Of a stretch of 39,612 bases of DNA, positions 17,857 to 20,614 are shown piece by piece. The notes beneath the pieces are model-generated. The model saw only the letters and a program-made list of their open reading frames with translations, made no database searches and was not told where the DNA came from. Each line of letters opens with the position of its first letter. Position 1 is the stretch's first letter. A program made the translations under genes and the position numbers. This DNA is from a virus (lineage: Duplodnaviria; Heunggongvirae; Uroviricota; Caudoviricetes): the IMG/VR virus record IMGVR_UViG_3300022758_000169. One strand, 5' to 3'.

Positions 17857-17876
17857 CGCCGTGACATGTCACAATC

Positions 17877-17901
17877 AGCCCGCCGATTCGCGGGCTTTTT
17901 T
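17877..17901 (+). terminator. rho-independent terminator
   Basis: AGCCCGC-cgattc-GCGGGCT followed by TTTTT. Confidence 0.6.
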
Positions 17902-19375
17902 ATGCAAAAGGATCATAGTCTGTGATGGCTTTGCCTTGCTGGTTCTGCTGCCCGGGAATTCGCAGACGCTTCGACACAGGGAACGCAAACGTCAGCAGTA
18001 GCGCATCGCCTTTACCAGGAGAACGCCCAAGTCGCTCTTTGATATCTTCCTTCGGTTCGATAACGATTTTACCGTCCACGCGAACTTTGTACTCTGCCGT
18101 CGACAGGTCGTCCGCTGTTTCCTGGTCATCCAGCATGCCGCCGAGCCTCAGCCATGTCTTGCATGAGTTGAACATCTCCCCACGCTTGTTGAGCATCTGC
18201 GGGTCAGTAGACGCGCCACCGAACGGAACAAGTTGCCATGTACGACCCCAGCCGTCACCGATTGACTTCAAACCGGTTCCGTAACCGAAGTCGATGAACA
18301 CCGCGTCAGCCTGATACTGGTCTTCAAAGTCAGCGATACGCTTCGCCATAATCAGATCGTCGGTAGTCTTGTTGCCAGTCCACAGCACCTTACTGTGTAG
18401 CCCCTGCCGCAGGTATATCACCGCGTCATCAACGCCGGAGTATGCCGGGTCAACGCCGATTATCACCGGAGCATGTGCCACCTGCGCAGCGGTTACCACC
18501 CGTTTCATTGCCTCGTCAGTAAGACCGGTAGGGATAAACTGCAATTCAGATGCATCAGGGAATATGCCGCGCACACGGATTTTAACGAAGTCGCTGTCTT
18601 CCCCGTAGTCATCAACCCATTTCTGCAACTGCTGTTTGTTAGTGCCTTCCACCGTTCGGCTGTCAATCTGCGCAGTTTTCCAGCGGTGTTTATATTTGCG
18701 GAAACATTCGCGGAAACGTCCGGTATTACGCGTCGGGTTTCCGAACGCCACCCAGATAATCTCAGTGTCTTCGTCCGTTAGTGCACCCTCGGCAACTTCC
18801 CACACCAGATCCGCAATGTTCGACGCTTCATCGAATACCACGATGATGCGTTTGCGCTCGTTGTGTAGTCCGGCGAATGCCTCAGTGTTGTGCTCAGACC
18901 AGGGGATTGCGTCAGCTCGCCACCGCTTGTCGTGTCCAGGATCATTGCTGTACATCGCGGTAGCGGTACAGGTAAACCAGTCTTTCGTGATAGCAAGGTT
19001 CGACCACTTGATAATTTCCGGCCAGGTCTTCGTTCGTAGCTGGTTGTCGGTGTTGGCGGTCACCACAACCTTACAATCCTCGCAAGTGGACATGCCCCAG
19101 TTGATCAGCATTGAGATGAATGCGGATTTACCAATACCGTGACCAGAAGCGCGTGCCAGCATAAGCGGCTGATAACGCGTCTCTGGATTCTGCAGGTGAT
19201 CACGTATCTCTCGGAACGCATCGGCCTGCCACTGACGTGGACCGGTAGCATGTGCCAGTTCAGTCCCCTCTTCCCCCCAAGGGAACGCATAGAGGGCATA
19301 GCCAAGCGGATCGTGAGTGAACCCTGCAATATCTTCGATTAACTGCTCTTCAGGAGATAACGCTGCATCTGTCAC
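17900..19375 (-). CDS. terminase large subunit
   Basis: 491-aa ORF; Walker A-like ASGHGIGKS; GTG start overlapping the small subunit stop. Confidence 0.8.
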   Translation of the reverse strand: MTDAALSPEEQLIEDIAGFTHDPLGYALYAFPWGEEGTELAHATGPRQWQADAFREIRDHLQNPETRYQPLMLARASGHGIGKSAFISMLINWGMSTCEDCKVVVTANTDNQLRTKTWPEIIKWSNLAITKDWFTCTATAMYSNDPGHDKRWRADAIPWSEHNTEAFAGLHNERKRIIVVFDEASNIADLVWEVAEGALTDEDTEIIWVAFGNPTRNTGRFRECFRKYKHRWKTAQIDSRTVEGTNKQQLQKWVDDYGEDSDFVKIRVRGIFPDASELQFIPTGLTDEAMKRVVTAAQVAHAPVIIGVDPAYSGVDDAVIYLRQGLHSKVLWTGNKTTDDLIMAKRIADFEDQYQADAVFIDFGYGTGLKSIGDGWGRTWQLVPFGGASTDPQMLNKRGEMFNSCKTWLRLGGMLDDQETADDLSTAEYKVRVDGKIVIEPKEDIKERLGRSPGKGDALLLTFAFPVSKRLRIPGQQNQQGKAITDYDPFA

Positions 19376-19965
19376 TGATTGCCATCCTGACGTTCTTTCA
19401 GTCTCTTCCTGGCTGCCGCTATGCGATCAGCAATTGTCACATTCACATTAACATCCAGGCGTTCTTTGAATGCATTGACATCGACGTGCTTACCAATCAG
19501 TTCGAGGTTCTTCACCTTGTCAGGCCATTTAATTTTTTTGAGGATTGTCTCTATCGAATCCTCGTCCATGTTCATGATGGTCGATGACAGATCAAAGCCG
19601 CTAAGCGTAGTGCGCCAGATTTTCGGCCACTCGCGGATTGGCTTAAGGCTCCCATCGTCGTTGAGGATATCAATCACGTCCATCTGGTCGATCTCCACCA
19701 GGCGCATGAGAACGTAATCAGCACTGACGCGCATTCGTTTGTTGCGCTCCTCCATCAACTCGGCAATCCGTTTCTGAATGCGTTCATCGCGCATCATGAC
19801 ACTGGCTTTAACTGCCGCTGTATTTGGGGAGAATCCTGCATTAATCGCAGCCTGAGTCTGATTTTCAGGCGTTTTGATGTATGACTGGCAATAAGCCTCC
19901 TGCATTGCTGTTAGTGGCTTAAATTGCGTTGATTTGCGTTTATAGGTTTTAGGTTCAGCAGGCAT
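19372..19965 (-). CDS. terminase small subunit
   Basis: Pattern LTAMQEAYCQSYIKTPENQTQAAINAGFSPNTAAVKA matches the recalled small-terminase consensus; start set at ATG 19965 after GGTGG. Confidence 0.65.
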   Translation of the reverse strand: MPAEPKTYKRKSTQFKPLTAMQEAYCQSYIKTPENQTQAAINAGFSPNTAAVKASVMMRDERIQKRIAELMEERNKRMRVSADYVLMRLVEIDQMDVIDILNDDGSLKPIREWPKIWRTTLSGFDLSSTIMNMDEDSIETILKKIKWPDKVKNLELIGKHVDVNAFKERLDVNVNVTIADRIAAARKRLKERQDGNQ

Positions 19966-20042
19966 CATAACCACCATGGTAATAGTTACCGTTGTGGTAA
20001 TAGTACCATGCAAAATAAAGCCGCCATAGTTGGCGGCAGTAT

Positions 20043-20255
20043 TCAAAGTCCATCAAATTCATCGTAAAAACTCTCGTCAAGATACCCTTCCCATTTACCG
20101 CGAATGAAAATTACATCCTCGCCGCAAGGGTGCTGACTGTCGATAACTATATCCCTCCTGGCGCAACCATACTTATGCATGAGAAATTTAACCTCTTTCG
20201 GAAAATTTGCTGAGTTATCTCTCATATCTTCAAGGTCGTAGCGTATTTTTGGCAT
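20043..20255 (-). CDS. hypothetical protein
   Basis: ATG at 20255 with SD GAAGGTG; palindrome GTGACATGTCAC just upstream. Confidence 0.45.
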   Translation of the reverse strand: MPKIRYDLEDMRDNSANFPKEVKFLMHKYGCARRDIVIDSQHPCGEDVIFIRGKWEGYLDESFYDEFDGL

Positions 20256-20272
20256 AACACCTTCGTGACATG

Positions 20273-20614
20273 TCACACTATTAATTTCGTTTCATGCCAG
20301 CCTTTAGTCACCCAGCATTGCGAGTCACCATTACACGGGCATGAATTAACGGGAACTCTCTCGCCGCACTTACCGCAAAGTTTTCTGCTGATCGATTTTA
20401 TACGCCCGCGCACACGTGCATCATCCTGGCGGATCAGCAGCGCGATGTACTCGGCCATTTCATAGGGATCGTGACCAGGGCGCCGGGCGGCGCAGTTCCG
20501 CGCCAGCATTTCCTGCTCCTGCTTATCCAGCACCAGTTCAATTTTGCGCTCACCGGCGGCGGACTGCCGAGCGCGCTGCGCGGCTTTGCGCTCTGCTGCT
20601 GATTTAGCCATCAA
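20273..20614 (-). CDS. hypothetical protein with C-terminal Cys-rich motif
   Basis: 113-aa ORF ending CGKCGERVPVNSCPCNGDSQC; lies directly upstream of the packaging operon. Confidence 0.45.
   Translation of the reverse strand: MMAKSAAERKAAQRARQSAAGERKIELVLDKQEQEMLARNCAARRPGHDPYEMAEYIALLIRQDDARVRGRIKSISRKLCGKCGERVPVNSCPCNGDSQCWVTKGWHETKLIV

What the first reader, a model, noticed from the sequence alone, without database searches (positions are those of the whole stretch)
17861..20276. Identical 12-bp palindrome GTGACATGTCAC at both ends of the terminase block
The sequence CGTGACATGTCACA occurs at 17860..17873, just downstream of the large terminase stop, and at 20264..20277, just upstream of the RBS of the first gene of the packaging operon. 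The palindrome is too short for a terminator hairpin, which suggests a protein-binding site (packaging or late-gene control) or recombination scars bracketing the terminase module.
Basis: seen in the sequence. Interest (0 to 1): 0.4.

Follow-up and report, generated by a model that had tools for sequence, protein, structure and literature searches.

The report
Conserved phage operator marking operon ends
The repeated 12-bp palindrome is real and strongly conserved, but it is not a terminase or packaging signal: it looks like the DNA-binding site of a small uncharacterised phage protein whose own gene ends inside one copy, and in this phage group it sits at the ends of transcription units beside terminators.

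Summary
Observation confirmed: GTGACATGTCAC occurs exactly twice, at 17861-17872 and 20265-20276. The window is an epsilon15/phiV10-like podophage (Uetakevirus).

- **Not a terminase element.** Copy A overlaps the TGA stop of the upstream gene 20273-20611(-), a phrog_536 / N15 gp46-family protein. Homologues of that gene in unrelated phages (N15, P2-like, ZF40, Chlobot, AH07) carry the same dyad, GTGAC-NN-GTCAC, at or in their stop codon, far from any terminase.
- **Copy B** lies 4 nt from a terminator hairpin. It sits exactly at the junction between conserved TerL-side sequence and at least five interchangeable reverse-strand morons.
- **A third copy.** Diverged relatives have another exact copy at the end of the long structural operon, 1-3 nt from a terminator in five of six. 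In all of them the 12-mer is an invariant island in diverged flanks.
- **The protein** appears to combine a weakly RHH-like N-terminal module with a TraR/DksA-like zinc ribbon.

Best explanation: the dyad is this protein's cognate operator, acting as a barrier or modulator of transcription at unit boundaries. Binding is inferred, not shown. The half-sites equal those of E. coli matS, but the spacing is one base shorter and no homology to MatP is detectable. I found no description of the motif in the searchable literature.

The parts
20265..20276 (.). Palindrome copy A (GTGAC-AT-GTCAC). On the - strand it contains the TGA stop (20275-20273) of the phrog_536 gene and ends 1 nt before the RBS of the next small ORF.
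   Evidence: Exact in 77 of 79 close relatives. Present at the same gene end in diverged Uetakeviruses and in unrelated phages.
17861..17872 (.). Palindrome copy B, between the stop of the + strand moron ORF (4 nt away) and the terminator hairpin (4 nt away); 27 nt beyond the TerL stop.
   Evidence: Exact in 60 of 77 close relatives, 1 mismatch in 6, absent in 11. Sits at the junction with at least 5 different morons. Invariant in 7 diverged genomes.
20273..20611 (-). Gene for the 112-aa epsilon15 gp49 / N15 gp46-family protein (phrog_536), the proposed binder. N-terminal basic helix plus RHH-like region, and a C-terminal Cys-rich TraR/DksA-like zinc ribbon. It is the last gene of the rightward early block.
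   Evidence: (E 1.3e-53).
17877..17905 (+). Intrinsic terminator (AGCCCGCCGATTCGCGGGCT + T-run) for the + strand moron. It overlaps the TerL stop codon on the other strand.
20010..20037 (-). Intrinsic terminator (GCCGCCAACTATGGCGGC + TTTATTTT) between copy A and TerS.
   Evidence: The homologous terminator is annotated in epsilon15 at 39646-39672.
20043..20252 (-). Optional 69-aa ORF (phrog_1541) inserted between copy A and the terminator. In most relatives it is an internal-deletion remnant (MHDEFDGF*).
17431..17856 (+). Moron ORF (phrog_4846) convergent with TerL. It is one of at least five alternative cargo genes that abut copy B in relatives.
17900..19965 (-). TerL (17900-19375) and TerS (19372-19965), the block bracketed by the two copies. 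Context only, not functionally tied to the palindrome.

Best explanation
**What it is.** The 12-bp dyad GTGAC-NN-GTCAC (centre AT in this phage) is the cognate DNA site of the small phage protein encoded at 20273-20611(-), a member of the epsilon15 gp49 / N15 gp46 family (phrog_536). A dimer would read the two GTGAC half-sites through the N-terminal, probably ribbon-helix-helix, module. The C-terminal TraR/DksA-like zinc ribbon may contact RNA polymerase.

**Copy A.** It overlaps the protein's own stop codon at the end of the early operon. It would act as a 3' operator: once the protein accumulates, it blocks or modifies polymerase there. This limits read-through into the downstream units. As at lacI-O3, it could also limit the protein's own synthesis through truncated non-stop transcripts.

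**Copy B.** It sits beside the terminator between TerL and the convergent moron. In relatives a third copy sits at the end of the structural operon. These would act as protein-dependent barriers or insulators that supplement one-directional intrinsic terminators.

**Shown versus inferred.**
- Shown: conservation, gene-site linkage, and position next to terminators.
- Inferred: binding by this protein (my estimate about 0.65) and the roadblock or termination role (about 0.3).
For: 1. **Invariant island.** In 6-8 Uetakeviruses about 80% identical to the window, the 12-mer is 98-100% conserved while the flanks score 58-88%.
2. **Gene-site linkage across unrelated phages.**
   - ZF40 and Chlobot have exact copies 2 and 6 nt after the stop.
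   - AH07, N15 and a P2-like Yersinia phage have the dyad with the TGA stop embedded in it.
   - 49 of 49 N15-like loci and 43 of 50 P2-like loci show the same arrangement.
   - The neighbouring genes differ in each lineage.
3. **Lineage-specific centre.** The half-sites never change. The central dinucleotide is lineage-specific and shared by all copies in a genome: AT in Uetakeviruses and ZF40, TG three times in N15, GC in the Yersinia phage.
4. **Over-representation.** There are 2-4 copies per genome in 10 of 11 genomes (one in the Yersinia phage), against about 0.04 expected.
5. **Unbiased scan.** Of 120 IMG/VR stretches with the 14-mer TGTGACATGTCACA, 32 hold a homologue and 16 have the dyad at its stop. 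Several other stretches show arrays of full and half sites.
6. **Terminator adjacency.** Sites B and C lie 1-4 nt from terminator hairpins whose own sequences differ between sites and phages.
7. **Protein.**
   - Weak RHH-type Pfam hits in 5 of 68 members.
   - The PDB-wide profile search puts YbiI and TraR on top (E 0.022-0.041).
   - hhalign against TraR gives 81% probability.
8. **Precedent.** A 3' operator causing a roadblock and SsrA tagging is documented for lacI-O3 (PMC3711431; also PMC13584721).
Against: - There is no binding or transcript data of any kind.
- The protein fold is not established. The AF2 model reaches pLDDT 66-73, and Foldseek found nothing significant in PDB or BFVD.
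- The RHH and TraR similarities are weak, and the TraR DxxDxA motif is absent.
- Copy B is dispensable in 11 of 77 close relatives.
- The window has no third copy.
- In N15 and ZF40 the extra copies lie inside coding regions rather than at terminators.
- In Vibrio-like and some P2-like phages the site is 235-590 nt from the gene.
- Gene-site linkage could also arise if the dyad were a 3' element of the gene cassette read by another factor.
- At site C the late gene, not the moron, is on the side that a roadblock would truncate, which fits the simple 'silence the moron' version poorly.
Confidence: 0.55

Rival explanations
1. The dyad is read by a host factor rather than by the phage protein. 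The obvious candidate is MatP, whose matS site (GTGACRNYGTCAC) has the same half-sites. The phage would use or decoy the host chromosome-organising system.
For: The half-sites are identical to matS (PMC6907758, PMC3603311). All hosts of these phages (Enterobacterales, Vibrio) have MatP (my own knowledge; V. cholerae MatP in PMC11564523). True matS is reported absent from prophages (PMC3603311), so a near-matS motif is conspicuous.
Against: The spacing is 2 nt, not 3, in every one of the copies seen, and no 13-bp matS occurs in any of 11 genomes. The central dinucleotide covaries with the phage protein lineage, not with the host. The strict linkage to the phrog_536 stop codon is unexplained by a host factor. 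The phage protein shows no detectable homology to MatP (hhalign 0.14% and 0.26%).
Confidence: 0.1
2. The palindrome has no binding function of its own. It is a module-boundary ('linker') sequence kept because recombination between phages repeatedly resolves there, so it brackets exchangeable cassettes.
For: Copy B is exactly the breakpoint between the conserved TerL-side terminator and at least 5 unrelated morons, each ending 4 nt from it. The sequence just past copy A is also hypervariable: an ORF, an ORF remnant, a terminator, or a LexA-box promoter with a UmuD-like gene. These phages encode RecT/RecE-type recombinases.
Against: 12 bp is very short for homology-driven exchange. A passive junction would not remain 100% invariant amid diverged flanks. 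It would not keep fixed half-sites with lineage-specific centres, occur in arrays, or sit in the stop codon of one gene family in five unrelated phage types. Functional sites at operon ends are expected to coincide with permissive insertion points, so the junction pattern is also predicted by the best explanation.
Confidence: 0.1
3. It acts in RNA: a small hairpin or protein-bound RNA element just upstream of terminators that affects 3'-end formation, stability or processing of the transcripts. A palindrome would give the same RNA from either strand.
For: It is transcribed at every position. It lies between a stop codon and a terminator in the direction of the adjacent gene at A, B and C. MFE folds draw it as a separate 4-5 bp stem beside the terminator stem.
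Against: The stem is worth only -1.2 kcal/mol, no better than shuffles. There are no compensatory changes: the half-sites are invariant and only the would-be loop varies, including non-palindromic centres. It does not compete with the terminator stems. Copies inside coding regions and arrays of half-sites fit DNA recognition better.
Confidence: 0.07
4. It is a packaging signal (pac or terminase recognition site) or a terminase-operon regulator.
For: The two copies bracket TerS-TerL in the window. The TerL type suggests headful packaging, where pac sites lie near TerS (epsilon15 annotation notes). In one P2-like group the site cluster lies in the non-coding stretch next to the portal gene.
Against: The same dyad accompanies the phrog_536 gene in N15 (a cos phage, 7 kb from the genome end), ZF40 (9 kb from TerL), AH07 and Chlobot (next to xis/int). 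A third copy lies at the far end of the structural operon in relatives. Copy B is missing in 11 of 77 relatives with 98-100% identical TerL. The ends of the phiV10 and epsilon15 records are annotation conventions, not mapped termini.
Confidence: 0.03

Closest known systems
MatP / matS of E. coli (Ter macrodomain organiser)
   Same: The 5-bp half-sites are identical (GTGAC ... GTCAC), in inverted arrangement. There are a few dispersed copies per replicon rather than promoter-proximal operators. MatP reads matS with an RHH domain (my own knowledge; motif from PMC6907758, PMC3603311).
   Different: The spacer is 2 nt rather than 3 (12 bp against 13 bp) in all copies. The sites lie in phage genomes, where true matS is reported absent. 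The phage protein shows no detectable homology to MatP (hhalign 0.14-0.26%). Binding by MatP is untested.
lacI-O3: an operator at the 3' end of the regulator's own gene (roadblock, truncated mRNA, SsrA tagging)
   Same: A dyad operator overlaps or abuts the end of the gene for its presumed binder. That geometry would stall polymerase before the stop codon is transcribed (PMC3711431; general mechanism in PMC13584721).
   Different: Here the arrangement is conserved across a whole protein family and several phage types, with the stop codon inside the site. Further copies sit next to terminators. Nothing has been measured.
Lambda Q / QBE-tR' arrangement
   Same: The last gene of the delayed-early operon is followed directly by its presumed DNA site, then a terminator, then the late (terminase) genes. 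That is the order seen in epsilon15: gp49, dyad, 22 nt, terminator, TerS.
   Different: There is no promoter around the dyad in the window. Extra copies lie at the ends, not the starts, of late units. There is no sequence similarity to Q. N15 has both a Q-like gene and a gp46.
TraR / DksA family (RNA polymerase secondary-channel factors, including lambda Orf73)
   Same: The C-terminal half (helix plus CxxCG..P...C zinc ribbon) gives TraR and YbiI as the top PDB-wide profile hits, and 81% hhalign probability. TraR homologues are common small phage early proteins (PMC9239242).
   Different: TraR binds polymerase rather than DNA (PMC6970531). This family has an extra N-terminal module and an associated DNA dyad. 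It lacks the DxxDxA tip. Only 3 of the 4 zinc cysteines align.
Ribbon-helix-helix operators (CopG, omega, RepB/CopB type)
   Same: A small protein with a basic N-terminus, a strand-helix-helix pattern, and a short dyad target. There are weak Pfam hits to RHH_5, RepB-RCR_reg and RHH_1 in 5 of 68 members. AH07's homologue was annotated 'RepB-like' by its depositors.
   Different: The hits are below any curated threshold. The AF2 monomer shows helices but no confident RHH fold, and Foldseek is not significant.
epsilon15 'repressor' sites (TTACC-N5-GGTAA)
   Same: Another over-represented dyad in the same genomes (16 copies in the window), annotated as protein-binding in epsilon15. Two copies lie next to the terminase block.
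   Different: The sequence differs. Where its neighbours were identified it lies upstream of gene blocks (TerS, the gp3/portal block, a tailspike-like ORF) and around the repressor gene, whereas the palindrome sits at unit ends.

Membership tests
Transcription-factor operator (cognate site of a phage DNA-binding protein) | Dyad symmetry with conserved half-sites | tested here: met
   GTGAC/GTCAC is invariant in all lineages, while the centre varies: AT, TG, GC, AC, CT.
Transcription-factor operator (cognate site of a phage DNA-binding protein) | Over-representation, and conservation above that of the flanks | tested here: met
   2-4 copies per genome in 10 of 11 genomes (one in the Yersinia phage), against about 0.04 expected. 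Conservation of the 12-mer is 0.98-1.00, against 0.58-0.88 for the flanks.
Transcription-factor operator (cognate site of a phage DNA-binding protein) | Co-occurrence of the site with the gene of the binder across lineages | tested here: met
   The dyad lies at or in the stop codon of phrog_536 homologues in Uetakeviruses, ZF40, Chlobot, AH07, N15-like (49 of 49) and P2-like (43 of 50) phages.
Transcription-factor operator (cognate site of a phage DNA-binding protein) | Direct, sequence-specific binding by the protein | not testable with these tools
   Needs EMSA, footprinting or ChIP.
matS (MatP binding site) | 13-bp motif GTGAC-RNY-GTCAC | tested here: not met
   All copies have a 2-nt spacer, and no GTGAC-N3-GTCAC occurs in any of 11 genomes. 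Motif definition from PMC6907758 and PMC3603311.
matS (MatP binding site) | The partner protein is MatP or a homologue | tested here: not met
   hhalign of the family profile against E. coli MatP gives 0.14% (A2) and 0.26% (A4) probability. MatP is not among the PDB hits.
Intrinsic terminator | A stable GC-rich hairpin followed by a U-tract | tested here: not met
   The palindrome alone folds at -1.2 kcal/mol (z -0.03) and has no U-tract. The true terminators are the adjacent hairpins.
pac / terminase recognition site | Constant association with the terminase genes or the packaging origin in relatives | tested here: not met
   The dyad is found away from terminase in N15, ZF40, AH07 and Chlobot. 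Copy B is absent in 11 of 77 relatives with the same TerL. A third copy lies about 17 kb away.
pac / terminase recognition site | Packaging initiation maps to the site | not testable with these tools
   No virion-end data are available here.
PHROG 536 (N15 gp46 / epsilon15 gp49 family) | Full-length match to the family profile | tested here: met
   E 1.3e-53 over residues 2-112. The family has 715 clusters at 90% identity and 211 at 50% identity.
Ribbon-helix-helix DNA-binding proteins | Strand-helix-helix fold or profile match | tested here: inconclusive
   Sub-threshold Pfam hits: RHH_5 0.013, RepB-RCR_reg 0.028, RHH_1 0.071, in 5 of 68 members. AF2 places helices at 30-43 and 52-76 after an extended 19-29. 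Foldseek is not significant; the AtaR RHH antitoxin appears at E 9.8.
TraR/DksA C4 zinc-finger family | Globular C4 zinc-binding domain | tested here: inconclusive
   The top PDB-wide hits are YbiI (0.022) and TraR (0.037, 0.041). hhalign gives 81% over 52 columns. C79, C82 and C99 align with TraR cysteines. The fourth does not, and C91 may substitute for it.
TraR/DksA C4 zinc-finger family | N-terminal helix with a DxxDxA motif reaching the active site (PMC9239242) | tested here: not met
   The aligned helix is internal and is preceded by RRPGRxPY. No conserved acidic DxxDxA is present.
Module-boundary / moron junction | An invariant short sequence flanked on one side by unrelated alternative cargo | tested here: met
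   At least 5 unrelated sequences begin 4 nt beyond copy B. The content beyond copy A is also variable.

The most novel reading that the evidence does not exclude
The phrog_536 proteins could be a previously unrecognised class of site-tethered RNA-polymerase regulators. An RHH-type module would anchor a dimer on GTGAC-N2-GTCAC, and a TraR/DksA-like zinc ribbon would engage polymerase arriving at that site. Together they would create protein-dependent, bidirectional punctuation of phage transcription units: a stop-codon-embedded 3' operator plus copies beside terminators. Because the half-sites are those of matS, the system might also intersect with host MatP-type chromosome organisation.
Probability: 0.2. 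Interest if true: 0.75.

Novelty: new variant of a known kind. Interest (0 to 1): 0.55.

Why it matters
- **A handle on an orphan family.** It assigns a concrete, testable DNA target to a gene family found in temperate phages and prophages of Enterobacterales and Vibrio: 715 clusters at 90% identity and 211 at 50%. That family is currently annotated 'hypothetical' or, without evidence, 'transcriptional regulator'.
- **Genome architecture.** It explains a recurrent feature of epsilon15/phiV10-like phages. An invariant 12-mer marks the 3' ends of transcription units and the points where morons are swapped.
- **Annotation.** It warns against annotating the motif as a pac site.
- **If the mechanism holds.** A regulator whose operator sits in its own stop codon and next to terminators would be a compact natural transcription insulator. 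If the TraR-like module is real, it would also be a new way of delivering a secondary-channel-type factor to specific DNA positions.
- **Host overlap.** The identity of the half-sites with matS raises a checkable question about cross-talk with host MatP.

Tried and rejected
- **Chance.** Rejected by the shuffles and by conservation in relatives.
- **Terminator hairpin.** Rejected: -1.2 kcal/mol.
- **Rfam families.** None lies at the sites. Only a tRNA-Arg, C4/isrK and sRNA-Xcc1 occur elsewhere.
- **Promoter.** GTGACA is a 5-of-6 match to a -35 hexamer. A plausible -10 follows only in epsilon15 site A, not in the window, and the consensus scan lists no promoter at either copy.
- **Same as the epsilon15 'repressor' sites.** Rejected. 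Those are TTACC-N5-GGTAA.
- **Third copy in the window.** None exists. The 2-mismatch match at 14772 is in coding sequence for a conserved RDMAQRE peptide.
- **MatP homology.** Not detectable.
- **Fold assignment.** Two AF2 models and three Foldseek searches gave nothing significant.
- **Sequence families for the protein.** Pfam and NCBIfam gave nothing above threshold.
- **Literature.** No paper in the library contains GTGACATGTCAC or the N15 or Yersinia variants.
- **ORF context of two site arrays.** L303 and L247 were uninformative.
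Full report
**1. Observation.**
GTGACATGTCAC occurs at 17861-17872 and 20265-20276. It occurs nowhere else with up to 1 mismatch (expected 0.15; no shuffle of 100 reached two). The flanking C and A make an identical 14-mer at both places.

A 14-bp repeat is not rare here, since 170 different 14-mers recur. But the window holds only six perfect 12-bp palindromes, and two of them are this one. Only 23 of 1000 dinucleotide shuffles contain any recurring 12-bp palindrome. On the window alone its significance is moderate.

**2. Anatomy in the window.**
The window is an epsilon15/phiV10-like podophage (Uetakevirus). It is 95% identical to vB_EcoP_PAS61 and about 81% to epsilon15 over this block. 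The relevant genes run on the - strand, in this order:
- a 112-aa gene at 20273-20611 (phrog_536, epsilon15 gp49 / N15 gp46 family), the last of the early block that begins with the replication genes;
- copy A, which contains that gene's TGA stop (20275-20273);
- a 69-aa ORF at 20046-20252 (phrog_1541);
- an intrinsic terminator at 20037-20020;
- two TTACC-N5-GGTAA dyads at 19968-20000;
- TerS (19372-19965) and TerL (17900-19375);
- a hairpin at 17896-17877 whose T-tract serves the opposite strand;
- copy B;
- 4 nt further on, the stop of a convergent + strand moron ORF (17431-17856, phrog_4846), which is preceded by a tRNA-Arg (17160-17236).

So copy A is not upstream of TerS's RBS, and a terminator lies between them. 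Copy B belongs to the junction between the moron and its terminator.

**3. Close relatives.**
I fetched 80 IMG/VR loci with 98-100% identical TerL.
- Copy A is exact in 77 of 79 and has one mismatch in 2.
- Copy B is exact in 60 of 77, has one mismatch in 6, and is absent in 11, where a different gene abuts the TerL stop.
- The sequence on the TerL side of copy B (the terminator hairpin) is conserved. The other side starts at least five unrelated morons, each with its reverse-strand stop codon 4 nt from the palindrome.
- Beyond copy A, the 69-aa ORF is either present or reduced to a 9-codon in-frame remnant.

**4. Diverged relatives.**
I compared epsilon15, phiV10, SPN1S, Tyrion, Kp4865-1, BUCT554 and BUCT711.
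- Most keep the exact 12-mer at A and at B. phiV10 and BUCT554 have one mismatch at A, and BUCT711 has no copy at B.
- Six of the seven (all but Kp4865-1) carry a third exact copy, site C, at the end of the long structural operon. It lies 1-3 nt upstream of an intrinsic terminator in five of them and 11 nt in BUCT711.
- The terminator sequences at A, B and C differ from each other and between phages.
- Anchored alignments give the palindrome a majority fraction of 0.98-1.00, against 0.58-0.88 for the 24-nt flanks.

The recurring unit is stop codon, then palindrome, then terminator with its T-tract in the direction of that gene. The window lacks site C because its structural operon runs straight into a tailspike gene, without an intervening moron or terminator. 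The epsilon15 GenBank record annotates many sites, but not this one.

**5. The palindrome follows a gene, not the terminase.**
A tblastn search with the 112-aa protein finds homologues in unrelated temperate phages. The dyad lies at the end of each homologue:
- ZF40 has an exact copy 2 nt after its TAA stop, and Chlobot has one 6 nt after.
- AH07 has GTGACCTGTCAC with the TGA stop embedded.
- N15 gene 46 has GTGACTGGTCAC with TGA embedded.
- A P2-like Yersinia phage has TGTGACGCGTCACA with TGA embedded.
- Vibrio phages have GTGACNNGTCAC about 230 nt downstream.
- In IMG/VR, 49 of 49 N15-like loci and 43 of 50 P2-like loci have the dyad starting 3 nt before the end of the stop codon.

The neighbouring genes differ in every lineage: xis/int, methylases, gpA, toxin-antitoxin genes. 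Where terminase was located (N15, ZF40, the Yersinia phage) it lies several kb away, and N15 and the P2-like phages package by cos.

The consensus is GTGAC-NN-GTCAC. The half-sites never vary. The centre is lineage-specific and shared by all copies within a genome. Ten of the eleven genomes carry 2-4 copies (the Yersinia phage has one), against about 0.04 expected.

**6. Unbiased scan.**
- 32 stretches contain a family member, and 16 have the dyad at its stop.
- 18 stretches carry Uetakevirus structural or packaging genes, and several of those are B- or C-type sites.
- Many others fall into recurrent conserved contexts.
- Several show arrays of full and half sites. One is a P2-like group with three sites in the non-coding stretch between the homologue and the portal gene.

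Arrays and half-sites are what one expects of protein operators.

**7. The protein.**
There is no Pfam, NCBIfam or PDB match for the single sequence. The family is modest in size: 715 clusters at 90% identity and 211 at 50% identity.

AF2 (pLDDT 66, then 73) gives helices at 5-18, 30-43 and 52-76, and a poorly defined Cys-rich C-terminus. Foldseek finds nothing significant in PDB or BFVD.

A diverse 68-member profile gives more:
- The best PDB-wide hits are YbiI (E 0.022) and TraR (0.037 and 0.041). All belong to the DksA/TraR zinc-finger family, and they align to residues about 50-111.
- hhalign against the TraR segment gives 81% probability.
- Individual members give sub-threshold hits to RHH_5, RepB-RCR_reg and RHH_1.
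- The DxxDxA tip that defines functional TraR homologues (PMC9239242) is absent.

I read the protein as an N-terminal, probably RHH-type, DNA-binding module fused to a TraR/DksA-like zinc ribbon. Both assignments are provisional.

**8. Comparison with matS.**
E. coli matS is GTGACRNYGTCAC (PMC6907758). It is reported absent from 500 prophages (PMC3603311). The phage dyad has the same half-sites but is one base shorter. No 13-bp version occurs in the 11 genomes examined. The family shows no detectable homology to MatP (0.14% and 0.26%). It is therefore not matS. Whether MatP can bind it is untested.

**9. Mechanism.**
- *Shown:* an invariant dyad, its linkage to one gene family, and, in Uetakeviruses, its placement next to terminators at unit boundaries that are also moron-exchange points.
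- *Inferred (about 0.65):* the family protein binds it as a dimer.
- *Further inferred (about 0.3):* bound protein acts on RNA polymerase at unit ends.

At copy A the geometry is that of lacI-O3. There, repressor bound at the 3' end of its own gene truncates the transcript and the product is SsrA-tagged (PMC3711431; PMC13584721). This geometry would also stop early-operon read-through into the downstream ORF and the terminase operon.

At copy B a bound dimer would stop TerL-direction transcription, which meets only a hairpin without a U-tract. It would also stop moron transcription just before the moron's stop codon. This would insulate the convergent units.

An antitermination role, as in lambda Q, is the mirror-image alternative, and the same experiments would separate the two. 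Start-of-unit control is more plausibly exerted by the TTACC-N5-GGTAA dyads. There are 16 in the window against 0.77 expected, and the same motif is annotated 'repressor' in epsilon15.

**10. Rivals.**
The rivals are a host factor such as MatP, a passive recombination junction, an RNA element, and a packaging signal. Each is weighed in its own section. None explains the combination of stop-codon linkage, invariant half-sites, lineage-specific centres and arrays as well as a cognate operator does. Packaging is the weakest.

**11. Novelty and verdict.**
No paper in the searchable library contains the motif or its variants. The kind of feature, a regulator with a dyad operator, is known. The architecture is not described: the operator is embedded in the regulator's own stop codon across a family, further copies sit beside terminators, the half-sites resemble matS, and the protein may carry a TraR-like module. 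Its terminase and packaging reading does not.

Noticed in passing
window 938, 1524, 16823, 19968, 19986, 22660, 22722, 24624, 24962, 25012, 25724, 25786, 31872, 37467, 38586, 38679: The dyad TTACC-N5-GGTAA occurs 16 times with up to 1 mismatch, against 0.77 expected. Copies lie upstream of TerS, upstream of the gp3/portal block, upstream of a tailspike-like ORF, and on both sides of the repressor ORF 25083-25667. The same motif is annotated 'protein_bind: repressor' in epsilon15. It is probably the main operator set of this phage.
   Followed up: partly
window 1-431 and 39182-39612; also 858-993 / 38638-38773 and 1495-1584 / 38540-38629: The two ends of the window are inverted repeats of each other (431 nt, 92% complementary). 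Each end carries a C4 antisense RNA plus isrK copy (717-901 - and 38730-38912 +). There are two tailspike-like ORFs (2108-4771 and 34243-37362). This could be a duplicated or invertible antirepressor/tailspike module or an assembly artefact.
   Followed up: no
window 30290-30502 and 39400-39612 (also 1-213, inverted): A 213-nt repeat (96%) is shared between the region just downstream of the integrase gene and the window ends.
   Followed up: no
window 17160-17236 (+): A tRNA-Arg (anticodon TCT) followed by its own terminator-like hairpin (17399-17414). It lies upstream of the moron ORF on the strand opposite to the structural genes.
   Followed up: no
window 29759-29848 (+): An Rfam hit to sRNA-Xcc1 (64.8 bits, above the gathering score) in the early-left region.
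   Followed up: no
window 20043-20252 (-); relatives L010, L043 etc.: The 69-aa ORF after copy A (phrog_1541) is replaced in most relatives by a 9-codon in-frame remnant (MHDEFDGF*) that keeps its start and its last codons. This is a clean internal deletion.
   Followed up: partly
L088 12697-12760, L090 34-431, L093 4795-5273, L092 6991-7329: A UmuD-like gene keeps company with the phrog_536 gene. It is driven by a LexA-box promoter 6 nt after the palindrome in Klebsiella Uetakeviruses, lies immediately upstream of the homologue in Chlobot, and is nearby in AH07. The Yersinia P2-like phage also has a LexA-box promoter after its dyad.
   Followed up: partly
window 14772-14783; phiV10 L005 5306: A near-copy (GCGCCATGTCAC; GTGACATGGCAC in phiV10) lies inside the gp5-like gene. 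It encodes a conserved RDMAQRE peptide, so it is probably a coding coincidence.
   Followed up: partly
L227, L239, L253, L222, L252, L254 (IMG/VR Uetakevirus-like contigs): Some relatives carry an extra exact palindrome flanked by TACC...GGTA operator-like sequences. It is apparently in an immunity or early control region, 8-9 kb from the phrog_536 gene.
   Followed up: no
L200 (N15) 28550, 33237, 39269: N15 has three copies of its own variant (GTGACTGGTCAC, or its complement). One is at the gene 46 stop. One lies between gene 33 and the terminator that precedes the antirepressor operon. One is inside repA.
   Followed up: partly
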